Shown here piece by piece: positions 13,496 to 55,595 of a stretch of 64,000 nucleotides of DNA. The notes beneath the pieces were generated by a model. The model saw only the letters and a list, made by a program, of their open reading frames with translations, was not told the origin of the DNA and did not search any database. The DNA comes from Eledone cirrhosa. Its lineage: Eukaryota. How positions within the stretch are numbered: position 1 is the stretch's first letter; each line of letters begins with the position of its first letter. Where the stretch lies: positions 31,496,001-31,560,000 of the forward strand of contig OZ024745.1 of NCBI GenBank assembly GCA_964016885.1. Reading direction: 5' to 3'. Made by a program: the position numbers and the translations under genes.

Positions 13496-14880
13496 AATCA
13501 TCATCATCTTCGTTTTACGTCCATCTTCCACGCTAGCATGGGTTAGACGGGAGTTGTCCCACTTGAGGCAAGGTTGGTCGGGTGACCATGTCTTGCTCAT
13601 ATAGGACTATCTGGCAGGTTTTCTACGGCTGGATGCCCTTCCTAACACCAACCACATTTACAGTGTGGACTGGGAACTTTTTACCGTGTTACCTACACGG
13701 TCACATTACAGAGTGGACTGTGTGTTTTTTTTGTGACACCTACACGATCTCGATCTCATTATCTCATTTATTTGGACTGGATGTTGTGGTACCAACTTTA
13801 CAGAGAGAGGTTGGTGAGAGTGGGAGTGGAAGGATAGGGTAGGGGTAGTGGATTGGGGTGTATATTTGGTTAAGAGGTGCCTACTGACTGTAGGTTTCGC
13901 TTTGTACATAGGCAAGGCGGGTCTTCTGTATTACTGCGTAGTGCCAAAGATCTCGGTCCAGTGACATTGTCTTAGAGAAGTGTAAGTGTGTAAGTACGGA
14001 ATTTATCAGATCGTCCCAGGTTTTTCTGAGTCTACCTACTCCGTAACTTCCATCAATTTTGATCACCCTCACTTTTTTTATACAGCTGTCGTCTTTCATG
14101 CACATCATGTGTCCATACCAACGTAGTCTTCTCTCAAGTAAACAGCATCTGATCCCTCTTATTCCTAATTTCTCACTTAGTTCATTTATGCTTTGCCGTT
14201 CACGTATATTACTATTACACATCCAACGGAGCATGCATGCTTCATTCCTTTCCAGTCTACACAGGTCCTCTGCACGCAATGCCCATATCTCACTGCCATA
14301 TAGCATTGCTGTTCGTATACAGGTATCATACAATCTGCCTTTCATTTTTAGAGAGAAACCTTTTGTGGCCAACAGCGGTATAAGCTCTCTGAACTTTTTC
14401 CATCCCGTTCTGACTCTAGCTACTGTACTTTCAGAGCACCCTCCACCACTGCTGATTTTGTCACCCAGGTAACGGAAAGTGTCCACTATTTCTATAGAAC
14501 CATCTGGGCAATAGAAGGAGCTAGTATCCTGTGGGCACTTGCTACTTATTGCACCTGAGCATCAGCCACATATAAAATCTACGTTCTTAGATAGTTTACC
14601 TGTGATCCCACTACATCTTTTATGTACCCATAGTTTGCATTTGGGACATAAAATGGAATTTCTGCCTACTCCTTTCCTACACACTGAGCATGGCCATTTC
14701 CTTGAGGGCACCTGTGCCCTATTTTCCTTTCTACAAACTAGAACTTTTGTCTTAGACAAGTTAACTTTAAGGCCTTTTGATTCTAGGCTATTCTTCCATG
14801 TTTGGAATTTCTTCTTTAGTTCAGCCATAGATTCAGCTATGAGAGTTAGATCATCTACATATAGGAGTTCCCATGGGCAG
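13496..14880 (-). mobile_element. 5'-truncated RTE LINE (RT C-terminus, PHD-like Cys motif, 3' UTR) in FAM204A intron 6
   Basis: Translation CPWELLYVDDL...GLKVNLSKTK...CSVCRKGVG...C..C..WVH..C, one TGA stop, then FRYLG...RRLRWYGH...GRLRKTW; 3' UTR ends in (ATG)n. Confidence 0.9.
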
Positions 14881-15947
14881 CATGCACACTGGGACTGTGT
14901 AGTGCTAACAAATAGAGACGGCTGTAAAAGCCTCCCAAATCTGCTCAGACGTTTCCAGCTGTGATAGGTAGTGACTGGATTTCCTGAATGTGCCACTGTG
15001 GACATGTTCAAACTGGATCAGGTCATCCAGATTGTATCTAGATAGGATATTCCATTAGGAAATAGATAAGGGTAGTATAGGTTGTCACATTTCAAAATAG
15101 TTGACTTCACAGACCACAACTTTGTAATTTGTAGAGCAAAGCTTAGATATAGGAGTTACTATTTTTAGTTTCATATCTCTTGGTTCAGAGTGCAAATTTC
15201 GCCAGAGATTATTTTGCCTTTCATCTTCTAAGTTTTATCAAATCAATGAAGCAATATTTCTGAGATGGAATCTATTGAATATATATCTCTTGTATAGTAT
15301 CTCATGAAATTAAATCTATATTTTATTATTATCATTGGAAAGAAAGTTTGATGTTGTTATATGTGATTGTATGCTGGCATGGAAAGTGGACGTTAAACGA
15401 TGATGATGATGATGTATATATTATTAGCAATGTTTAAAATGATCTAATTCATTTATCATTCCATTAATGTAATTCTCCTGCTGTTGATTGTAAATTCCAT
15501 ATATACAGCGGGCCAACTGGCCAGACCTTCCTCAAAATGCTACCATCCAGCTTCCAAAATATGGTTCTGCTATGAGCAGGGTACAGTGCAACTAACTGGC
15601 CAGACCCTCCTCATAACAGGACCACCCAGTCCCACTGTAAACGTGGTTGGTGTTAAGAAAGGCATCCAGCTGTAAAGCTGGAAAAATAAAATAGCCAAAA
15701 TACAGTTCTGTTTGATCAATGTATGGCATGTCCAACTGGCCAGACTTGTCTCATAATGTGGATGACCCGTTTAACTCATGCAATTATGGAAAAATAGACA
15801 TTAAATGGTGATGATGATGATGATGAGTCCTTGAAATTTTAACTGTCCGTGATGATAAGTTGAATTAGTATTTTTAATGGGATACTACTTTGAAAATTGT
15901 TTTTATTTTTAACGTGTGTATAATTTGAGATTTTCTTTATTTTATAG

Positions 15948-23590: not shown

Positions 23591-25044
23591 TATATATATA
23601 TATATAAATATATACACATACATTACAAGCATATATATCATCATCGCCGTTTAACGTCTATTTTCCATGTTTGCATGCCGCAAAGGACAATTTTCTCCGG
23701 AATACGGAGGAGGAAGGGCTAGACCCTTGGACATTAACCCCCCCCCCCCCCCAGGAGTTTTCTTTACCCCATGGACCTAACCCTAAGTGAGAGGTGTGTG
23801 TGAAAAGTCCGAGCATCCCCCCTCTCCCCGTTTTCTAGAAAAAAAGTCTTTTGTGGCATATTCGGAGGTAAGTTTAATTGATACCACGAAAAAAACATAA
23901 AAAAAGGAAAAATAATTATTTCCCATTGAAATCGATGGGAGTGTTCTATGATAGCCAATGTGGCATAGGCGTCTTAAACACTAGGCTCGCGGGCAGCAAA
24001 GTACTTTTCTATGGCCTACGGCAGAACAATTTCCGGGACTAATTAAGGAAAATTTGCCCTCCAGAATTTTGTATTAATTCACATATCCCACTATCATATG
24101 TGTATTCATTTTGATGAAAAATAAATAAATAGCATCCTCTCAACTGTATTGTGGATTAACATTATAACTGGCGGAAATCACACAATCACCTCTCATCTCA
24201 ATTTTGTTTGTGAAACTACTCCAAGGCGTAATAACTCCTTTGAGTCCTTGAGTTTGAGAACTCCAGATATAGAATGTAGCCTTTTTGTAACGAGCCGACA
24301 CCATCAGAAAATACAGTTTATATCTGAATTTAAATTAATTTCAAAACACGCAAAACTAATATCGTCGCGCGTACGGCGTTTCATATTGCATACACAAGAA
24401 AGCTTTCGCGTCACAACTTCCAATGTACCATGATCTACAAACCTTATGATTAACGTATTTAAAATCTAATATATATGTGTTGGATTTCATATAGAAAAGA
24501 CTTGCACACGACAAGAAGTCATTTCTTTTTATATGAAATAAATTACATACTTTCTCTACCAATGTATTGAGTACCTCATTTAACTGTGGTCTCTTTTCCT
24601 CCGTTCCTCTGGAAAACCATTCTTAATTATATATATATACAACATATAAATAAGCGTGTATATATGTATACATACATAATAGAAATAGAGAACAGAAACA
24701 ATAGCTATTTTTAACCCAGGCCTTTGATTTACTGCAGGATATAAATGAACTCCGATATATTCTTTTCTTTCTTGTAATTAGCGAACAAGTAGATTGATGA
24801 AGAGATGCAGTGACATGTAATTCACATATACAGCAACAATAATAATGATAATAATTTGAAAGTAATTAAGTTTTTGCGTATTTGGAAGCTAAATGCCGTA
24901 AAGCGGTACGAAAGTGTGTTTATCATCAGCGTCCTGCCGAAAAACAGCAGCTTTATCAGAACGTAAGTGTATTCGCTGAATTTTACTTCTGATTTGAGCG
25001 AGGGATAGTCTTTTTCCAGTAAAGAAGCTTTCCATTCACAAAGT

Positions 25045-25225
25045 ATGACATGGAGGGACAGACTAGAAAATCTCCTTGACATTGCCTTGAGAATCCCTCC
25101 TCTTTTCGTGATGGATGCTATACTAAATAAGCAAACATCTGTAGGACTTTGGTTGCTTTTCAACATCAAAGAGCCGCCAGATTCGTGGGGATTTAGTACC
25201 ATCACGTTTCTCTTTGATTTTGCAG
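25045..25225 (+). CDS. RNF139: TRC8/RNF139-like E3 ubiquitin ligase, coding exon 1
   Basis: Encodes MTWRDRLENLLDIALRIPPLFVMDAIL, the TRC8_N-type 'LRVPxxFxxD' motif. Donor GCAG|GTAAAC in phase 1 matches the acceptor at 31177/31178. Confidence 0.85.
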
Positions 25226-25538
25226 GTAAACACTATCATTTACCAAGTTATTGTTTATTTTGTCATTGTTTTAAAATTGTCAATCCATTGAAATGTCATA
25301 TAATCTGCCTGCATTATTACTTACGAATGATTCACAGTATTCCTAAAATGGAAAAGTTGAAAAAATCAGCAAGATGTTACTTGTTAATGTTGATTTACCT
25401 GTGTGTGTGTGTGTACGACCACCTAGCAAAAGAATATGCTATGTTATTTGTATTCCCTCATAATACATTTGTGTATTTCATCATAGCAGTTGTCCTTCTT
25501 TAGGCCTATATTAAATTACCCCAACAACTGAAAATAAT

Positions 25539-30763: not shown

Positions 30764-31177
30764 ATCTAAACAATATTGTGCCCCTACCACTCCATCAGGA
30801 GTTACAGAATTATACATACTATCTCTTCAAAAAAATCTTTGAAAATAGTTAAATATTTTAAATACTATATTTAGTAAGTATGTATAAAATATGTTTTTAA
30901 TTATTGATAAAATGAGTAGTATATGAGATAAAAATTCTTTAAAATTTTAAGCTTTTTAACAGGAAAAAGTGTTATAAAAAATGAATTTTTCATTGGCCAT
31001 CTTTTGTTTTTTGTTGGTGTTTGATTTAATTAATATTATCCTTTCCAAGCTTTAAATATGATAATTCAATATTGATATTTTATATTGAATTTTGTAAATA
31101 TTTAAATTAATTAATTTAATGTTTCTCCTAGACATTTTGTTGCTTTGGTTTTAAAACAGTTTTCTTTTTTATTTCAG

Positions 31178-32847
31178 GTTTCCTGTCCTCTTTGTTTGTC
31201 TTCTGCCTTGAGCTCAACTACATCCAATTGGTTTATTCTTACATCTTCTCAGGAGGAATAATTATTTTGTGTCAACATATAAATTCCTCATATACACTGA
31301 TGCCATTAACCTATAGTATTTGGTTTTTCAAAGAAGAAACAGCCTTAAGAAGTTTAAAGCACTTTCTATTCTTTGTTGTAATTAATTTCTCTTCACAAAG
31401 GCTTTTTATTCATTTTCGAAGAAAGGGCCGGTTGTGGACATACCTTGAAGGAAATTACCTAGAATTTAGTATTTACATTTCTTTTCTTTTGGTAGTATTT
31501 AGTAAATTAGTTACAGACATTTACATACCTCAAATTTTAATATATCTACACACTTTTTACACATTTTCTTTGCTACTTTTTGAAATAATCTTAGAAAGAA
31601 ATAATATTTTTATGTTTATTCAAGGCTCCTATCAGTCTGTTCGTGAAGATTTGGCAAATTTTGGAATTCAAATATTTCTTGAATCCCATTGGATTCGTCT
31701 TCATTTTCCACAAGTATTTCGTTTGTTCTGGTTCAGTCGTTTCATGTATCATTTAATCTTTTATGTCAATATGATAGCTTTACCAGAGAATGCAAATACG
31801 GATGATGAAGTTTTTTCAAAATTAATTTCAGGAAAGATACCTGAAAACACTTTTGAACTTTATGCTGTGATTAGTAAAAGTCTACTTGTCCGTGGCTGTG
31901 ATACATTTATTGCTCTCTTTGGACTTACATGCATTGTTTCCCTCATCTCACATTATATAGGCATCTTTGTTGCATATTTTGTTGGTTGTGATGTTGAGGA
32001 TGATCGAAATGCTGATCGTAATGTTGGCCTGTTATCTGCTATGTTGTTTTTAGTTCTAGCTTTACAAACAGGTCTAACTAGTCTTGAGGTTAATGCACGT
32101 TTAGTAAGACTGTTCCGTAACTTTTGTTTATTATCGACTGCTATCTTTCATTTTGTTCACAGTATGGTGCATCCTATTCTAATGTCAGTAAGTGCATCTC
32201 GAAATTCTGTGCCCAGTCGACACATACGACCATTATTGATGTGCTTTATTCTAAGCCTTTTCCCTTGTCTTCTCTTGAAATATCTTTGGAGTCACCATTC
32301 TACCAGTACTTGGCTTTTGGCTGTTTCTGCATTTAGTATTGAGATCATTGTCAAAGTTCTTGTTACAGTAACTGTGTACATTTTATTTATGATAGATGCT
32401 TACAGAAATAGCTTCTGGGAAGGTTTAGATGATTATGTCTATTATATTCAGTCCGCTGGTAATACTGTTGAGTTTTTGTTTGGAATCTTCTTATTTTGCA
32501 ATGGCACATGGATTATGTTGTTTGAATCTGGTGGTACCATCCGTGCAATCATGATGTGTATTCATGCTTACTTCAATATATGGTTGCAAGCAAAAAAGGG
32601 CTGGAAAATGTTTATGCACCGTCGGACTGCTGTGAGTAAAATCAATTCTCTTCCTGATGCATCTGAAGGACAATTACAGGAACTTAACGATCTTTGTGCT
32701 ATTTGTTTTGAACAGCTGAATTCAGCAAAGATTACACCCTGCAATCATTTCTTTCATGGAGTATGTTTGCGTAAATGGCTCTATATCCAAGACAAATGTC
32801 CAATGTGCCATAGTTTGATATATGAAATAAGACAGTTAGATGAATAA
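31178..32847 (+). CDS. RNF139: TRC8/RNF139-like E3 ubiquitin ligase, coding exon 2 (multi-TM domain + RING-H2)
   Basis: TTTCAG|GT TTC; many hydrophobic segments; DDYVYY and HAYFNIW motifs; RING-H2 CAIC...CNHFFH..C...CPMC. The two-exon structure favours RNF139 over the multi-exon RNF145. Confidence 0.9.
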
Positions 32848-42555: not shown

Positions 42556-43081
42556 AGGCTTCTGCAATTTCTGTTAACCAAATTCCACCCACAAAACATT
42601 GGTCAACCCGAGGCTATAGAAGATACTTGCTCAAGGTGCCGCACTGTGGGACTGAACTCATAATCCTTGATGGAATAAATGTAAAATATAAGCCATTAAG
42701 ATTTACTGTAAAAATCACAAATTTTTTTTAATTATTGTTGCATTTTCAAATGAGTGTTTGATAATAAACTACACATTGCAAATACATAAGAAATATATAA
42801 TTTAATTATTTTCTTTTAATATATATTTTTACTGTTTTTGATTCATTTTACCATGTGTGCAGGGAGGGAAAACTTTATTTTTACAAATTTATGTCCAAGC
42901 CCTACAAGCATGGAAAAGCAGATGTAAAATGATGATGATGATACATATTGTTGGGACAATGTTTTCTTCCTTTCTACAGCTAACGGCTTCCTTGTTGTTA
43001 ACTATTCAACCACAAAGTATGATTGGACCCATTCAATAGGCAGTCAAAATGACTGATAGTTTAGCCATAATTCATAAAATA

Positions 43082-44229
43082 TTACTGCATTTGTGTATTT
43101 TCTTCATTGTCTAAATTTTGCAATACAAATGATAAATGTTCACAGATGATTGTATGGAGATCACTGGAAATATACATAAGAATCCTGAAATTGTCTTTGT
43201 CTGCTAAAACACCACTTGGTGTTGCCATCACATCAGATAAAGTCTTGTGAACTTGACTGATCTTTTGAAAATGATCAGGATTCAGTGGCATTGGTAACAC
43301 CTTACAGACTTCAGTAAAGTTAGACAACCAGTCATAGTATTCTTGGCTACTGAAATCTGGTTTTGATACAAAATCTACCTGCCCTTCAAGTTTATCACTA
43401 TGTAGATGTTGGGAATCTGTTGTAATTTCTTCTTGTTTCACGGAATCGTTTTCTTCATAATGAACTTCAACAAAATGAGGCTGATTATCACCCTTTACAT
43501 TTTCTATAAGTTGTTGAGCATATTCCACTGGCACTTCTACTTGCTCTGCACAAGCTTGATTTGAATTTTGCTCAATGTCTTCCAAGCTGACAATAGTTAT
43601 TACAGTAGCGCCATCTGTAGTGTTTTCAATCAATGAAGGGAGGTCTTGTTCAACAATTGTTGCAGCAATTTGATTTGCAGTGTTTTCATAGTTAGCAGCA
43701 TGTTCATGTGATGTAGCTTGGCAAATAGCAGAGAACTGCTCTCGCTCATTTGCAGAGATAGTGCCAATGCCAGCAGATTGCATTGCAGTAGCTACCACTT
43801 GAGCCACAGTCTGTGAACTTGGACCATCAGTTTCTTCTAGGATAACATCTCCACTACTGATTGGTGTGGCTATGTGTGTCACTTCACTACCTGTTAAACC
43901 TTCAACTATCTGTGCTAATTTTTTGTGATATGCTGTTGGTTTATTGTCTATTTCAACTCTAGAAACAGCCCCACTTTGGATTTTGTCATTTTCCTTATGA
44001 GAGAACTGAGAACTAGATTTTGTTTTTTGTTTTTCAATTTTAAAATTGCTCTCCTGTTCTGAATGCTTCCGTGTCATATGAACTTTCAGTTGTCCAGCCC
44101 TTTTAAAAGAATCACCACAGAGATCACAAGAGTATGGTTTGGAACCCAAATGTTCTTTAACATGACGTCTTTTGCTGGAAGGGTCACTGAACCGTGCATG
44201 GCATAAATTACAAACAAATGGTTTCTTTC
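43082..44229 (-). CDS. AT-hook/C2H2 zinc-finger protein, terminal coding exon (fingers 7-8, acidic linker, C-terminal domain)
   Basis: TTTCAG|GA AAG AAA CCA; fingers CNLC..SKRRHVKEH and CDLC..HMTRKH; TAA stop at 43082-43084. Confidence 0.9.
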
Positions 44230-45575
44230 CTGAAAGAAAAAAAAACAATAAAAAAAGTTAAAACTGTATTTATATGAAGAAAAAAAAGGAAAAGAAAAAT
44301 AATCTTATTATCTACATCATAAAAACTTTCTGGAGTCAATAAAATACTAGTTAAATATTGGATGTTGCTCTAACTGACTATAATTTATGGCTTTGTGCCT
44401 TAGTGAAAAATAATTATTACTACTATTATTAGGGTGGTGGATTGGCAGTATTGGTAGAGCGTCGAACAACATGCTTTGCGTTATAGTCTTACACCCTTTA
44501 CATTTTGAATTCAAACCCCACAGGTTAGCTTTGCCTTTCATTCTTAAGGGATTGATAAAATAAAGTACCAGTAATGCACTGGGGTCAATTTAATCAACTT
44601 TTCTCTCCCCCAAAATTGTTGGCCTTGTGCCTAAATCAGAAACCATATTTTGATGATTCTGTCCACCTTCAAATTCTACATAAATAAGGTTTGGATTTTT
44701 GCCCAGTTCTCAGACATAAAATAGTGGAGTCAACTTATATTTGAGTATCTAAGGTAAATCACTCAGGCAATATATTTTATTAGAAATATAGTAACAAAAG
44801 AGTTAAGAGTTATGGTTAAAAGTTTGATATATGATTTTACAACACGATAATAAACGCTGTAATAACTTAGCCTGAATTACTTAGACAAGTTTATTAACGG
44901 AATTTTGTGTGTATATATATATATATTTTTTTTGGTCTTGAATATTATTTTTTGTATACTTATAAAAAAAAATTAAATACATTTGTTGGTGTTTAATCCC
45001 AGGTCAGGAACATATGGTAGTAACCATTCAGTATCTTTTATACGACTATATTGTCCAAACTGACTTTTTAGTCAGTAGGTAGTGTGATTCGAGGGGCATT
45101 TAGTTGATACTTCTAGCAAATCAAGCAGCCACATAATAGCTCCCTTGTTGGTTCAGTTAAACAGTAGTCTTTGTCATGTAGTTAATTTGAATGACAATGT
45201 CATCAATAGTCAGTGTACAATATCTGTAAATGGGAGCATTAGAACTGTGAAATTGATGAACATTAACTTTGCCTTTCATCCTTACGGGGTCGATAAAATA
45301 AAGTACCAGTCATACACTGGAATAATTGCTGGCCTTGTGCCAAAAGTAGAAACAATTAATTACATAATTACTGTGTTAATTGAACAATTTATCTATTCAT
45401 CATTACATTAAGTCTCTTTCCAACACAATATATTTGATTATGTTTATTTAATACAGGAATGTGGTGGAGTTGTAAACAGTTTCATCTATATACATTATAC
45501 GTGGATGAGGACTTTCAAACCCATATATAAATATTTCCTATGTATAATCACATACATAGGTTTTTATTACCATTC

Positions 45576-45652
45576 CTACTGTTGACTTACCATCAACAGT
45601 GGATGGTATACAACTACTAATGACTTACCATCAACAGTGGATGGTATACAAC
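45576..45652. repeat. Two units of the 38-bp minisatellite upstream of the LINE
   Basis: Identical to units of the array at 47484-51389. Confidence 0.95.
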
Positions 45653-47483
45653 AAGGTGTTCTGGAAGTATGTTCACTCAAAGCAGAGGCCTCACTCTCCA
45701 GTTAGTCCTCTTCGCAATCCCCACACAAGCCAGGTTACTGACGACCCCAAGGAATGCGCAGAGCTCATTGCTGAATGCTATGCAGGCATTTTCACCATTG
45801 AAGACCAGAGTGTACCATCTCCACCACCTATGACACCGGACTCTATTACAACCATGGAATTTACACCTGCAATGCTGCGACGTCACCTAAAAAATAAACG
45901 CAACCATGCCTCTCCTGGTCTTGATGGTGTTACGTACCTGCTTCTTAAACGTGGTGGGTACTTCCTTCTACACCAGTTATCACGCTTCTTCCAATTCTGT
46001 CTGAACAACAGTGCTACTCCAGAACAGTGGAAAACTGCCAGTGTCATTCCTCTGTTCAAAAAGGGTGACCGCACATCACCTGTGAACTATCGTCCAGTCA
46101 GTCTTACTAGTTGCATCGCCAAACTGATGGAATCCTGTGTCAGAGAAACACTTTGGAACTTCTGGAGCTCTCACAGTCTTATCCGGCCCTCGCAATTTGG
46201 ATTTATCCCCAACTCCAGCTGCTGTGATCAACTTATAGAGTTTCTTGAGGACATCACCCGGATCACTGATGGCGGCTCATGGGTGGATGTTGTTTATCTT
46301 GACTTTGCGAAGGCCTTCAATTCTGTGCCACACAAAAGGCTTATGGCAAAACTCTCTGCAATGGGTGTGAAGGATGATCTTTTTAACTGGTTGAAGTCCT
46401 TCATTCTCAGTCGAAGAGAGGTAGTCACGGTTCTGGGACAGCATTCCTCACCATATGAGATGTCATCTGGTGTACCTCAGGGATCTGTTCTTGGCCCCCT
46501 TTTGTTTGTGGCATATATTAATGACATAGATGCCAACTTAAGGAATGCCACAGTACTAAAGTACGCAGACGACATCAAGCTGTACCTTGAGATAAAAAGG
46601 ACAGATCCTGAACACTATAGATCTTGCTTGCAGTCTGACCTGGACACAATGCAACAGTGGATCTCAGACTGGCAACTCAAGCTAGCTGTGGACAAGTGCA
46701 CCACCATGCATTTTGGGAGTAAAAACCCAGTGTCCACATACTCTCTCCACAGCACTAATATCAAGAAGTCTTCCTGTGAACGTGACCTGGGCATTACGGT
46801 CAGCAGCGATTTGCGTTGGACGAGGCACGTCTCTAAAATTGTCAAGAGGGCCGAGGGTGTCTTAGCATCACTCAGCAAGACCTTTGTCAGCCGCTCTCCA
46901 GATATCTATTTAAGGCTGTATACAGCTATGGTGCGACCACACTTAGAATTTGCATCACCAGTCTGGAACCCCTATCTTGCTCAGGACATTGACCGCCTGG
47001 AAACTGTTCAGAGACATGCAACCAAGCGAATACCCTCCATCAGGCATCTACCATACTCTGAGCGCCTTGCTTCCCTGGGCATGGATTCATTGAAGCTCCG
47101 ACGCCTGGCAACTGACTTGGTAAACACCCACAAAATTGTTAACCATGTTGCCAACAACAACCCTGAGTGCCTTTTCGATTTCCATGTGTCTAACACACGT
47201 GGACATGCCCACAAAGTAAGAAAACAGCACAGTTCCCATGACTTTCGGAAACATTTTTTCACGCTCAGAGTTGCTGAAGCATGGAACAAACTACCTGCAT
47301 CAGTTGTTAGCTGTCGAGACACTGCATCCTTTAAGGCCTCCATGCTTCCCGAGATCCGCCAACACTACAGCTAACACATACAAACATGTACTTCCCTGGC
47401 ATTTGTGTATTATTCTATGTACTATATTGACGAGTTGTAGTGCACCTGAGGACTTTACACAATAATTTCATTATTATTATTAT
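45653..47483 (+). mobile_element. 5'-truncated CR1/L2-group LINE with an uninterrupted RT ORF (stop at 47372-47374), short 3' UTR and (TTA)n tail
   Basis: Motifs PGLDG, KKGDR..NYRPVSLTS, QFGF, LDFAKAF, GVPQGSVLGPLLF, YADD, VRPHLEFASPVW and FFTLRV..WNKLP. No endonuclease or ORF1. Antisense within the last intron of the zinc-finger gene. Confidence 0.93.
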
Positions 47484-50400
47484 TACTGTTGACTTACCAT
47501 CAACAGTGGATGGTATACAACTACTAATGACCTACCATCAACAGTGGATGGTATACAACTACTAATGACCTACCATCAACAGTGGATGGTATACAACTAC
47601 TAATGACTTACCATCAACAGTGGATGGTATACAACTACTGTTGACTTACCATCAACAGTGGATGGTATACAACTACTGTTGACTTACCATCAACAGTGGA
47701 TGGTATACAACTACTGTTGACTTACCATCAACAGTGGATGGTATACAACTACTAATGACTTACCATCAACAGTGGATGGTATACAACTACTAATGACTTA
47801 CCATCAACAGTGGATGGTATACAACTACTAATGACTTACCATCAACAGTGGATGGTATACAACTACTAATGACCTACCATCAACAGTGGATGGTATACAA
47901 CTACTAATGACTTACCATCAACAGTGGATGGTATACAACTACTAATGACCTACCATCAACAGTGGATGGTATACAACTACTGTTGACTTACCATCAACAG
48001 TGGATGGTATACAACTACTAATGACTTACCATCAACAGTGGATGGTATACAACTACTAATGACCTACCATCAACAGTGGATGGTATACAACTACTAATGA
48101 CCTACCATCAACAGTGGATGGTATACAACTACTGTTGACTTACCATCAACAGTGGATGGTATACAACTACTGTTGACTTACCATCAACAGTGGATGGTAT
48201 ACAACTACTAATGACTTACCATCAACAGTGGATGGTATACAACTACTAATGACCTACCATCAACAGTGGATGGTATACAACTACTAATGACCTACCATCA
48301 ACAGTGGATGGTATACAACTACTAATGACCTACCATCAACAGTGGATGGTATACAACTACTAATGACCTACCATCAACAGTGGATGGTATACAACTACTA
48401 ATGACCTACCATCAACAGTGGATGGTATACAACTACTAATGACCTACCATCAACAGTGGATGGTATACAACTACTGTTGACTTACCATCAACAGTGGATG
48501 GTATACAACTACTAATGACCTACCATCAACAGTGGATGGTATACAACTACTAATGACTTACCATCAACAGTGGATGGTATACAACTACTAATGACCTACC
48601 ATCAACAGTGGATGGTATACAACTACTGTTGACTTACCAACAACAGTGGATGGTATACAACTACTAATGACTTACCATCAACAGTGGATGGTATACAACT
48701 ACTAATGACCTACCATCAACAGTGGATGGTATACAACTACTAATGACCTACCATCAACAGTGGATGGTATACAACTACTGTTGACTTACCATCAACAGTG
48801 GATGGTATACAACTACTGTTGACTTACCATCAACAGTGGATGGTATACAACTACTAATGACTTACCATCAACAGTGGATGGTATACAACTACTAATGACC
48901 TACCATCAACAGTGGATGGTATACAACTACTAATGACCTACCATCAACAGTGGATGGTATACAACTACTAATGACCTCCCATCAACAGTGGATGGTATAC
49001 AACTACTAATGACCTACCATCAACAGTGGATGGTATACAACTACTAATGACCTACCATCAACAGTGGATGGTATACAACTACTAATGACCTACCATCAAC
49101 AGTGGATGGTATACAACTACTAATGACCTACCATCAACAGTGGATGGTATACAACTACTGTTGACTTACCATCAACAGTGGATGGTATACAACTACTAAT
49201 GACCTACCATCAACAGTGGATGGTATACAACTACTGTTGACTTACCATCAACAGTGGATGGTATACAACTACTAATGACCTACCATCAACAGTGGATGGT
49301 ATACAACTACTAATGACTTACCATCAACAGTGGATGGTATACAACTACTGTTGACTTACCATCAACAGTGGATGGTATACAACTACTGTTGACTTACCAT
49401 CAACAGTGGATGGTATACAACTACTAATGACTTACCATCAACAGTGGATGGTATACAACTACTGTTGACTTACCATCAACAGTGGATGGTATACAACTAC
49501 TAATGACTTACCATCAACAGTGGATGGTATACAACTACTAATGACCTACCATCAACAGTGGATGGTATACAACTACTAATGACTTACCATCAACAGTGGA
49601 TGGTATACAACTACTAATGACCTACCATCAACAGTGGATGGTATACAACTACTAATGACCTACCATCAACAGTGGATGGTATACAACTACTGTTGACTTA
49701 CCATCAACAGTGGATGGTATACAACTACTAATGACTTACCATCAACAGTGGATGGTATACAACTACTGTTGACTTACCATCAACAGTGGATGGTATACAA
49801 CTACTAATGACTTACCATCAACAGTGGATGGTATACAACTACTAATGACCTACCATCAACAGTGGATGGTATACAACTACTAATGACCTACCATCAACAG
49901 TGGATGGTATACAACTACTGTTGACTTACCATCAACAGTGGATGGTATACAACTACTGTTGACTTACCATCAACAGTGGATGGTATACAACTACTAATGA
50001 CTTACCATCAACAGTGGATGGTATACAACTACTAATGACCTACCATCAACAGTGGATGGTATACAACTACTAATGACCTACCATCAACAGTGGATGGTAT
50101 ACAACTACTAATGACCTCCCATCAACAGTGGATGGTATACAACTACTAATGACCTACCATCAACAGTGGATGGTATACAACTACTAATGACCTACCATCA
50201 ACAGTGGATGGTATACAACTACTAATGACCTACCATCAACAGTGGATGGTATACAACTACTAATGACCTACCATCAACAGTGGATGGTATACAACTACTG
50301 TTGACTTACCATCAACAGTGGATGGTATACAACTACTAATGACCTACCATCAACAGTGGATGGTATACAACTACTGTTGACTTACCATCAACAGTGGATG

Positions 50401-51389
50401 GTATACAACTACTAATGACCTACCATCAACAGTGGATGGTATACAACTACTAATGACTTACCATCAACAGTGGATGGTATACAACTACTGTTGACTTACC
50501 ATCAACAGTGGATGGTATACAACTACTGTTGACTTACCATCAACAGTGGATGGTATACAACTACTAATGACTTACCATCAACAGTGGATGGTATACAACT
50601 ACTAATGACTTACCATCAACAGTGGATGGTATACAACTACTGTTGACTTACCATCAACAGTGGATGGTATACAACTACTAATGACTTACCATCAACAGTG
50701 GATGGTATACAACTACTAATGACCTACCATCAACAGTGGATGGTATACAACTACTAATGACTTACCATCAACAGTGGATGGTATACAACTACTAATGACC
50801 TACCATCAACAGTGGATGGTATACAACTACTAATGACCTACCATCAACAGTGGATGGTATACAACTACTAATGACCTACCATCAACAGTGGATGGTATAC
50901 AACTACTAATGACCTACCATCAACAGTGGATGGTATACAACTACTGTTGACTTACCATCAACAGTGGATGGTATACAACTACTAATGACTTACCATCAAC
51001 AGTGGATGGTATACAACTACTAATGACTTACCATCAACAGTGGATGGTATACAACTACTAATGACTTACCATCAACAGTGGATGGTATACAACTACTAAT
51101 GACCTACCATCAACAGTGGATGGTATACAACTACTAATGACCTACCATCAACAGTGGATGGTATACAACTACTAATGACCTACCATCAACAGTGGATGGT
51201 ATACAACTACTGTTGACTTACCATCAACAGTGGATGGTATACAACTACTAATGACTTACCATCAACAGTGGATGGTATACAACTACTGTTGACTTACCAT
51301 CAACAGTGGATGGTATACAACTACTAATGACTTACCATCAACAGTGGATGGTATACAACTACTAATGACCTACCATCAACAGTGGATGG
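47484..51389. repeat. 38-bp tandem minisatellite, about 103 units
   Basis: Unit TAC(TAAT|TGTT)GAC(T|C)TACCATCAACAGTGGATGGTATACAAC, nearly invariant, with the internal inverted repeat TACCATC/GATGGTA. Confidence 0.97.
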
Positions 51390-51399
51390 CATATGGAGT

Positions 51400-51511
51400 G
51401 GATTGCCATCAGTTTTGACGATGAGTGTTCTGAGTATTCCGGTTGTTCAATCAATGGAACAGACTGCTCATGAAATTAATGTTTAAGTGGTTGAGCATGC
51501 CATACTGACAC
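51400..51511 (-). mobile_element. 3' fragment of a cephalopod-type SINE abutting the array
   Basis: ATCAATGGAACAG.CTGCTC.TGAAATTAA...AAGTGG.TGAGCA resembles a common octopus SINE 3' region as recalled; not verified. Confidence 0.45.
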
Positions 51512-51636
51512 TAGGGATAAGCCCATGGAACTAGGATAAGCTGTGGGTTTTATCTAACTCATACATAATACGATAGACATAATAAAATAATTTTAAGTTA
51601 TGGTGAGAAACAAGATTAAGTGAAGGAGAAAGTTAC

Positions 51637-51720
51637 CTGTATGAATGATCTTATGCCTAGTTACGTCTGACTGGTGAGCAAAACCTCGGTTGCAGTGATC
51701 ACAGAGAAATGGCTTTTCAC
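51637..51720 (-). CDS. Zinc-finger gene coding exon 7 (finger 6)
   Basis: TTTCAG|G EKPFLCDHCNRGFAHQSDVTRHKIIHT G|GTAACT; 84 nt, phase 1-1; missed by the ORF track. Confidence 0.92.
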
Positions 51721-52473: not shown

Positions 52474-52725
52474 CTGTATGTACTTTAGAATGAGATTTTA
52501 AATATACCATCTGAGAAAATCTCTGGCCACACTTGTTGCACTCATAGGGTTTCTCTGAAGAGTGAGTGATGAGATGACGTCGTAGACAACTGATCTGACG
52601 GAAGGGAAGCTGGCAAATATGGCAAACATGTGGTTTGGAGTTTGTATGAATTGCTACATGTTCCAACAGGCTTATCTTACTTGAGAACTTGTTATCACAT
52701 ATTTCACATGAAAAAGGTTTGATTC
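52474..52725 (-). CDS. Zinc-finger gene coding exon 6 (fingers 3-5)
   Basis: CTGCAG|G IKPFSCEIC...SLLEHVAIH...CHIC...HLITH...CNKC...HSKVHT G|GTAATT; 252 nt. Confidence 0.93.
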
Positions 52726-52816: not shown

Positions 52817-54604
52817 GTAGAAGAGGGATGATGTATGGTGCACTAAAGCTGGATGAGTGTAGAGTTAACAGAGGAGGGGTGTTGTGTGGTTCACTAAAGC
52901 TGGGTGAGTGTATAGTAGAGGAGGGGTGTTGTGTAGTTCACTAAAGCTGGGTGAGTGTATAGTAGAGGAGGGGTGTTGTGTAGTTCACTAAAGCTGGATG
53001 AGTGTAGAGTTAACAGAGGAGGGGTGTTGTATGGTTCACTAAAGCTGGGTGAGTGTATAGTTAACAGAGGAGGGGTGTTGTGTGGTTCACTAAAGCTGGG
53101 TGAGTGTATAGTAGAGGAGGGGTGTTGTGTAGTTCACTAAAGCTGGGTGAGTGTAGAGTTAACAGAGGAGGGGTGTTGTGTGGTTCACTAAAGCTGGGTG
53201 AGTGTATAGTAGAGGAGGGGTGTTGTGTGGTTCACTAAAGCTGGGTGAGTGTATAGTAGAGGAGGGGTGTTGTGTAGTTCACTAAAGCTGGGTGAGTGTA
53301 TAGTAGAGGAGGGGTGTTGTGTAGTTCACTAAAGCTGGGTGAGTGTATAGTAGAGGAGGGGTGTTGTGTGGTTCACTAAAGCTGGGTGAGTGTATAGTAG
53401 AGGAGGGGTGTTGTGTAGTTCACTAAAGCTGGGTGAGTGTAGAGTTAACAGAGGAGGGGTGTTGTGTGGTTCACTAAAGCTGGGTGAGTGTATAGTAGAG
53501 GAGGGGTGTTGTGTAGTTCACTAAAGCTGGGTGAGTGTATAGTAGAGGAGGGGTGTTGTGTAGTTCACTAAAGCTGGGTAAGTGTATAGTTAGTAGAGGA
53601 GGGGTGTTGTGTAGTTCACTAAAGCTGGGTGAGTGTAGAGTTAACAGAGGAGGGGTGTTGTGTGGTTCACTAAAGCTGGGTGAGTGTATAGTTAGTAGAG
53701 GAGGGGTGTTGTGTGGTTCACTAAAGCTGGGTGAGTGTATAGTAGAGGAGGGGTGTTGTGTAGTTTATTAAAGCTGGGTGAGTGTATAGTAGAGGAGGGG
53801 TGTTGTGTAGTTCACTAAAGCTGGGTGAGTGTATAGTAGAGGAGGGGTGTTGTGTAGTTCACTAAAGCTGGGTGAGTGTATAGTAGAGGAGGGGTGTTGT
53901 GTAGTTCACTAAAGCTGGGTGAGTGTATAGTAGAGGAGGGCTGTTGTGTGGTTCACTAAAGCTGGGTGAGTGTATAGTAGAGGAGGGGTGTTGTGTAGTT
54001 CACTAAAGCTGGGTGAGTGTATAGTTAGTAGAGGAGGGGTGTTGTGTAGTTCACTAAAGCTGGGTGAGTGTAGAGTTAACAGAGGAGGGGTGTTGTGTGG
54101 TTCACTAAAGCTGGGTGAGTGTATAGTTAGTAGAGGAGGGGTGTTGTGTGGTTCACTAAAGCTGGGTGAGTGTATAGTAGAGGAGGGGTGTTGTGTAGTT
54201 TATTAAAGCTGGGTGAGTGTATAGTAGAGGAGGGGTGTTGTGTAGTTCACTAAAGCTGGGTGAGTGTATAGTAGAGGAGGGGTGTTGTGTAGTTCACTAA
54301 AGCTGGGTGAGTGTATAGTAGAGGAGGGGTGTTGTGTAGTTCACTAAAGCTGGGTGAGTGTATAGTAGAGGAGGGGTGTTGTGTAGTTCACTAAAGCTGG
54401 GTGAGTGTATAGTTAGTAGAGGAGGGGTGTTGTGTAGTTCACTCAAGCTAGGTGAGTGTATAGTAGAGGAGGGGTGTTGTGTGGTTCACTCAAGCTAGGT
54501 GAGTGTATAGTAGAGGAGGGGTGTTGTGTAGTTCACTAAAGCTGGGTGAGTGTATAGTAGAGGAGGGGTGTTGTGTAGTTCACTCAAGCTAGGTGAGTGT
54601 ATAG
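52817..54604. repeat. 47/51-bp G-rich tandem minisatellite, about 37 units
   Basis: Unit GTAGAGGAGGGGTGTTGTGT(A/G)GTTCACTAAAGCTGGGTGAGTGTATA, with variants carrying a 4-bp insertion. Confidence 0.95.
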
Positions 54605-54982
54605 TTAATAGTTATTTTATTGACTTCTAGAATGATGAAAACCAAAGCCAATTGTAATAAAATTGGAACTGAAAACATAAAAGACTGAAACTAAATACTG
54701 CAATGTGTCACTGACTAAGGTATTTTATGGAGTGAGGTGGGAGATGAAGGCACAACAATTGCTACAGCAGGAAGCTGTACTTCAAAATATCACCAGAGGC
54801 ATCATTCATTGCTTGTAACAGAGTAGACATTACTAAAAGTACCCAAGGGCCAGTGGTGGTGAATGTGGTGCAGTTAAACTAGGTGACAACATCTATGTTA
54901 AGTCTATGATGAATATATTTGAATAAATTTTCATTTCAATAATTCACAAAATGAAGGATTACTGAAAATCAAAAATACAAAT

Positions 54983-55595
<613 letters not shown>

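What the first reader, a model, noticed from the sequence alone, without database searches (positions are those of the whole stretch)
45576..51389. Intact endonuclease-less reverse transcriptase ORF embedded in a 38-bp hairpin array that supplies its start codons
Seen: two array units precede the RT and about 103 follow it. The junctions ...GTATACAAC|AAGGTG (45652/45653) and (TTA)n|TACTGTTGAC (47484) rejoin into one continuous unit, so there is no obvious TSD. The 5'-truncated ORF has no stops or frameshifts over about 574 codons and keeps YADD. ATGs inside the repeat (45620, 45641) are in frame, giving a potential MTYHQQWMVYN-KVFWKY... RT-only protein. Every other LINE in the window is decayed. 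Known: CR1-group LINEs are often 5'-truncated, end in short tandem repeats and often lack TSDs. Inference: the simplest reading is a young insertion into a minisatellite. More novel alternatives are (a) a LINE lineage that targets this hairpin repeat, (b) an expressed RT-only fusion, or (c) array expansion driven by reiterative RT copying, which would fit the 2-versus-103 asymmetry.
Basis: partly seen in the sequence, partly recalled or inferred. Interest (0 to 1): 0.72.

Follow-up and report, generated by a model that had tools for sequence, protein, structure and literature searches.

The report
Truncated young LINE inside a minisatellite
This is a cut-short copy of a young, common jumping gene (a LINE) that likely landed by chance in a local DNA repeat inside an octopus gene; its unbroken reading frame and borrowed start codons are what youth and chance would give, so it is ordinary.

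Summary
The anatomy is real; the novel readings fail. Bases 45653-47483 are the last 1.8 kb of a young LINE family in an octopod genome. Full-length copies (about 4.97 kb) carry ORF1 plus an APE endonuclease and RT, so the missing endonuclease here is simple 5' truncation (29 of 29 best relatives run further 5'). An open frame is normal at this age: 27 of 29 relatives, and 6 of 6 unselected copies at 99% identity or more; private changes are near neutral (dN/dS 0.85). An in-frame ATG from the flank occurs in 21 of 63 truncated copies (random 29%). The 38-mer occurs only here (105 of 105 matches), so no lineage targets it. Family copies lie in minisatellites no more often (3 of 19, 4 of 80) than random DNA does (15-19%). 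A related species has about two diverged units at single-copy depth here, so the unit predates the LINE. The array has three interspersed variants and a 21-unit block duplication, which points to DNA-level turnover rather than RT copying. The copy lies antisense in a zinc-finger gene intron. Still open: whether the array grew mainly after the insertion.

The parts
45577..45652 (+). Two 38-bp minisatellite units (variants B and C) left on the 5' side of the insertion
45620..45622 (+). In-frame ATG inside repeat unit 2 (another at 45641); an out-of-frame ATG lies upstream at 45603
45653..47483 (+). 5'-truncated LINE copy: last 1,817 bp of a 4,969-bp family plus (ATT)n tail; starts at ORF2 residue 373, after the endonuclease
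45653..47374 (+). Open remainder of ORF2 (573 codons + stop), RT domain with YADD
47469..47485 (+). (ATT)n 3' tail; its last two bases are shared with the first array unit
47484..51393 (+). Single-locus 38-bp minisatellite, 102.7 units: variants A45, B27, C27, D2, E1 and a terminal partial unit; 21-unit block duplicated at an offset of 30 units
44230..51636 (-). Inferred GT-AG intron of a C2H2 zinc-finger gene that holds the LINE and the array; the LINE is antisense to it
   Evidence: zinc-finger exons at 44063-44212, 51641-51703, 52478-52708 and 55359-55463; splice motifs; one contig of run X4 covers 42913-44230 and goes on with 758 letters that lie elsewhere

Best explanation
This is a 5'-truncated, likely dead-on-arrival copy of a young and probably still active LINE family of CR1 type that likely inserted by chance between two units of a single-locus minisatellite in a zinc-finger gene intron. 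Shown: the family, its full-length form with endonuclease, the truncation, the single-locus repeat and the antisense position. Inferred from the known LINE cycle: an intact copy elsewhere supplied endonuclease and RT, a nick at an AT-rich step primed reverse transcription on the (ATT)n tail with two bases of microhomology, synthesis stopped after 1.8 kb, and the 5' end joined without a visible duplication. Inferred: the frame is open because only about 4 private changes have accumulated; the ATGs are chance; the long 3' block kept turning over by ordinary DNA slippage or recombination while the two-unit stub stayed fixed.
For: 40 of 40 scored matches are 99-100% identical over nearly all 1,832 bp; a mid-ORF2 39-mer has 1,066 exact matches, older subfamilies included. 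29 of 29 fetched relatives continue 5'. Full-length copies have ORF1 (442 codons) and ORF2 (945) with Exo_endo_phos E 5.6e-14 and RVT_1; two are 99.96% identical. 23 of 80 unselected copies have also lost the endonuclease start but kept the RT start. Open frame in 27 of 29 best relatives and 6 of 6 unselected copies at 99% or more, against 7 of 74 below 99%. Private changes 21 synonymous, 61 non-synonymous, dN/dS 0.85; this copy 1 and 2. Flank ATG in 21 of 63 copies, random 29%. Repeat core 105 of 105 in this window. Copies in arrays: 3 of 19 and 4 of 80, against 15-19% of random DNA. Organism B has one 990-base contig at depth 14.7 over 45407-45648 with diverged units.
Against: The 2-versus-103 split is more lopsided than in the three other arrays examined (11|17, 27|104, 12|26 units); a uniform insertion into a 105-unit array would leave two units or fewer on one side about 4% of the time. 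The array has fewer private mutations (2) than the LINE's rate predicts (6.9, P 0.03), so much of its length may be younger than the insertion. The empty site folds better than 92% of random 80-mers. No empty allele was seen in this species, and transcription was not tested. The 29 best relatives were ranked by score, which favours gapless copies. The letters of B's contig beyond 45648 were not shown, so 'no LINE in B' is inferred.
Confidence: 0.9

Rival explanations
1. The LINE entered a short array (a few units) and the insertion promoted or preceded a one-sided expansion on its 3' side by DNA-level repair or slippage.
For: Organism B appears to have about 1.9 units, its alignment stopping at unit offset 34, exactly where this array's last unit ends. 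Few private mutations in the array. Strong asymmetry.
Against: Variants B and C lie on both sides, so the array was already diversified at insertion. Other copies sit in arrays that are long on both sides. Low diversity is also expected from normal turnover, and the LINE's private changes may include RT errors and unsampled source variants. Order of events is not causation.
Confidence: 0.15
2. Reiterative copying by the RT made the array during insertion.
For: The array begins exactly at the 3' tail and is 96% homogeneous.
Against: There is no donor locus for a 3' transduction. The unit exists, diverged, in organism B. Three variants are interspersed, with a 21-unit block repeated 30 units later that carries the same private change; the longest repeat in 500 shuffles was 13. 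Arrays that start at other copies' tails continue on their 5' side.
Confidence: 0.02
3. An expressed RT-only fusion protein is made from the repeat's ATGs.
For: 584-aa open frame with an intact RT domain and YADD.
Against: The combination is at chance level; copy L117 likewise takes in-frame ATGs from a flanking repeat. No sign of purifying selection, though only 3 private coding changes exist. Antisense to the host gene; the family's own 5' end is lost; an out-of-frame ATG lies upstream, and neither in-frame ATG has a purine at -3 (Kozak rule recalled).
Confidence: 0.03
4. A LINE lineage targets this hairpin repeat, or hairpins in general.
For: This one empty site folds at -12.7 kcal/mol, within the strongest 8% of random 80-mers.
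Against: The repeat is single-locus; 0 of 29 relatives have it nearby. 21 other young insertion sites fold no better than random (median -4.8 against -5.6, p 0.36). No enrichment in minisatellites.
Confidence: 0.01

Closest known systems
CR1-clade LINEs (Jockey/CR1/L2 group); recently active CR1 families in Octopus vulgaris (13 families, 787 insertions; PMC13282606, Table 1, first third of the text read)
   Same: Two ORFs, ORF2 with APE endonuclease and RT, short tandem-repeat tail, frequent 5' truncation, short or no target duplication (3-5 bp peak for L2 and CR1 clades; PMC4245944, passages read). RT and C-terminal motifs look like CR1 (recalled).
   Different: No difference found. Clade placement was not tested on a tree, and the family was not matched to a named library entry. 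The genome is an octopod other than O. vulgaris (TRC8 94% identical).
Sequence-specific non-LTR elements that target tandem repeats (R1, R2, SART/TRAS; recalled)
   Same: This one copy sits in a tandem array.
   Different: Family copies sit in unrelated sites, and the repeat is single-locus.
Endonuclease-less Penelope-like elements (PMC8557442, start of abstract in a search listing only)
   Same: An RT without an endonuclease in this copy.
   Different: Here the loss is a truncation of one copy; the family encodes an APE endonuclease.
Single-locus minisatellites with interspersed variant repeats (recalled)
   Same: Interspersed variants and a block duplication.
   Different: Interrupted by a LINE after unit 2.

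Membership tests
CR1-clade LINE | ORF2 with N-terminal APE endonuclease followed by RT | tested here: met
   In a full-length family copy: Exo_endo_phos 28-229, RVT_1 510-738. The window copy starts at residue 373.
CR1-clade LINE | 3' end in a short tandem repeat, not poly(A) | tested here: met
   (ATT)n tail in 30 of 30 loci.
CR1-clade LINE | Most copies 5'-truncated | tested here: met
   61 of 80 unselected copies start inside ORF2 beyond its first 80 bp.
CR1-clade LINE | Short (about 3-5 bp) or absent target-site duplication | tested here: inconclusive
   Of 19 copies, 3 had no usable 5' junction; of 16, 10 had no match of 5 bp or more and 6 had 5-12 bp AT-rich matches. Matches under 5 bp were not sought.
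CR1-clade LINE | ORF1 with PHD or esterase domain | tested here: inconclusive
   A cysteine-rich stretch is present, but Pfam gives only FYVE_2 at E 0.78.
CR1-clade LINE | RT phylogeny inside CR1 rather than L2 or Jockey | not tested
   The 12 homologues found carry no clade names; the motif likeness is recalled.
Repeat-targeting non-LTR element | Most copies in the same target repeat | tested here: not met
   0 of 29 relatives; repeat single-locus, 105 of 105.
Domesticated or expressed RT-only gene | Purifying selection and conservation at the orthologous site | tested here: not met
   1 synonymous and 2 non-synonymous private changes, low power; the LINE appears absent at the site in organism B (inferred).
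Domesticated or expressed RT-only gene | + strand transcript and translation | not testable with these tools
   No stranded raw RNA reads were available.

The most novel reading that the evidence does not exclude
A dated minisatellite birth: a two-unit ancestor (as in the related species) gained a hairpin-perfecting variant, a LINE inserted while the array was still short, and the insertion itself triggered a one-sided expansion to about 100 units next to its 3' tail.
Probability: 0.12. Interest if true: 0.4.

Novelty: new member of a known kind. Interest (0 to 1): 0.1.

Why it matters
As read here it matters little: one of many truncated copies of a young LINE family. Minor uses: it marks a probably active family in an octopod (two full-length copies 99.96% identical), and insertions into minisatellites let the empty site be read from the repeat register. 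If the expansion followed from the insertion, it would be a clean natural case of a retrotransposon driving minisatellite growth.

Tried and rejected
1. Lead that this family seeds arrays at its 3' tail: 3 of 29 relatives had long minisatellites starting at the tail and a fourth a two-unit repeat. Rejected: the three long arrays continue on the 5' side and the rate is not above background.
2. A 3'-end 40-mer gave 2,222 matches and a 37-mer 2,846. The first is shared with short elements and older subfamilies, and the second was not checked, so neither is used as a copy number.
3. Expression: no RNA holder listed. Run X4 (kind not on record) has no contig depth at 45407-45577; a hole in contigs is not counted as evidence.
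4. Empty allele in this species: run X1 lists no contig across the 45652/45653 junction, and the RAD run X8 does not cover the unique flank. Contigs drop variants, so this is inconclusive. X1 has an array contig at depth 263 against about 11 for unique contigs; depth is not a copy number, so the length of 103 units is not independently confirmed.
5. Organism C (X6) covers only 36 bases of the flank; not used.
6. A 76-bp or 38-bp target duplication cannot be excluded inside a tandem array, but would need one or two mismatches and is far longer than in other copies.
7. One search stopped on a length error after printing the open-frame count, and the C1 open-frame tally had an offset error; searches give the corrected results.
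8. No structure or complex prediction was run; nothing depended on it. Four paper searches were made; no claim of absence from print is made, and no supplements were read.

Full report
Observation. The anatomy is as described. Two 38-bp units (45577-45652) precede a 1.83-kb element ending in (ATT)n, and 102.7 units follow (47484-51393). The frame from 45653 is open for 573 codons, has only an RVT_1 domain and keeps YADD. ATGs at 45620 and 45641 are in frame; one at 45603 is not. Single units fold only modestly (z -1.0 to -2.1).

Setting. The genome is 3.0 Gb and a neighbouring TRC8 protein is 94% identical to that of Octopus vulgaris, so this is an octopod. C2H2 zinc-finger exons lie on the minus strand on both sides, with splice motifs at 51636 and 44230. 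One contig of run X4 covers 42913-44230 and continues with letters from elsewhere. The LINE is therefore, by inference, antisense in a 7.4-kb intron.

The element is a truncated family member. All 40 scored matches (of 4,847 candidates) are 99-100% identical over nearly the whole 1,832 bp. All 29 other fetched copies continue 5' with the same sequence. Extending 19 of them gave a full length of about 4,969 bp with ORF1 (442 codons) and ORF2 (945 codons); two copies are 99.96% identical. ORF2 has an APE endonuclease (residues 28-229) and RT (510-738); the window copy starts at residue 373. In the first 80 of 1,066 exact matches to a mid-ORF2 39-mer, 23 have likewise lost the endonuclease start but kept the RT start. 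'Endonuclease-less' describes a common truncation class.

The open frame reflects youth. 27 of 29 best relatives are open over the same codons. That set is biased by ranking, but among the 80 unselected copies 6 of 6 at 99% identity or more are open, against 1 of 7 at 98-99%, 2 of 18 at 96-98% and 4 of 49 below. Private changes in the 29 relatives are near neutral (21 synonymous, 61 non-synonymous, dN/dS 0.85); the window copy has 1 and 2. It carries 4 private changes in 1,817 bp; the median is 3.

The start codons are chance. 21 of 63 copies truncated inside ORF2 have an in-frame ATG upstream before any stop; random positions give 29% (some older copies have imprecise junctions). Copy L117 also takes ATGs from a flanking repeat into a frame open to the stop. 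Transcription could not be tested.

No targeting. A 30-mer of the unit has 100 exact matches and a 21-mer 105 matches with up to one mismatch, all in this window. None of 29 relatives has the core within about 1.5 kb (one lies at a contig end). Three of 19 young copies sit in unrelated minisatellites, with 11|17, 27|104 and 12|26 units on the two sides, and 4 of 80 unselected copies do (older copies with a different 3' end may hide some). Forty random 10-kb stretches are 18.9% minisatellite (bootstrap 9-30%), or 14.6% by a stricter rule (5-25%). Twenty-one other young insertion sites fold no better than random DNA (p 0.36), though this site is in the strongest 8%. Sites are AT-rich, and long duplications are absent, in line with the 3-5 bp peak reported for L2 and CR1 clades (PMC4245944, passages read).

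Origin of the array. In organism B one 990-base contig at depth 14.7 aligns over 45407-45648, with changes in the first unit, and runs on for 452 more letters; there is no extra depth on the units. It stops at unit offset 34, exactly where this array's terminal unit ends. I infer that B has about 1.9 units, no long array and no LINE here; the continuing letters were not shown. The unit therefore predates the insertion. The 3' array mixes three variants (45, 27, 27) and holds a 21-unit block repeated 30 units later with the same private change; shuffles reach at most 13. This is the pattern of DNA-level duplication, or of an assembly repeat, not of an RT stuttering on one template, and no donor locus exists for a 3' transduction.

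What remains open. The split of 2 versus 103 is lopsided, and the array has fewer private mutations than the LINE's rate predicts (2 against 6.9, P 0.03). Much of the array may be younger than the insertion. Ordinary turnover of the long side explains this without any role for the LINE, but no empty allele of this species was seen, so an effect of the insertion is not excluded.

Comparison and verdict. The element works like a CR1-type LINE and meets three tested features; clade placement by tree was not done. Recently active CR1 families are already reported in O. vulgaris (PMC13282606, Table 1), and CR1 is widespread in molluscs (PMC10294476, passages read). This is an ordinary recent insertion with a chance in-frame ATG. 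Interest 0.1.

Noticed in passing
L051-L080 (G000 C1): The LINE's last 45-90 bases are shared with many short elements and with an older subfamily that has a different 3' UTR middle; a candidate SINE-LINE tail pair.
   Followed up: partly
window 45577-45600: The TGTT variant of the unit perfects an 8-bp inverted repeat, whereas organism B has the TAAT form at this position: a candidate quasi-palindrome template-switch change.
   Followed up: partly
window 52817-54605: A second minisatellite (47 bp, 37 copies, G-rich strand) in another intron of the same zinc-finger gene.
   Followed up: no
L083 and L096: Two full-length copies on different contigs, 99.96% identical over 4,969 bp with both ORFs open: the family is probably still active.
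   Followed up: partly
L181-L220: 5 of 40 random 10-kb stretches of contig C1 are minisatellite from end to end.
   Followed up: no
window 13881-15017 (-): Remnant of a different LINE with partial RT followed by a PHD finger, split by a stop.
   Followed up: no
window 25009-25503 and 31132-32847 (+): Exons of a TRC8/RNF139 ubiquitin ligase gene.
   Followed up: partly
L166 and L167: Two copies 330 kb apart have the same length and the same flanks: likely a segmental duplication.
   Followed up: no
L006 and L025, 3' flank: L006 has a second, diverged 3'-end fragment right after its tail; L025 has a perfect 36-bp tandem duplication right after its tail.
   Followed up: no
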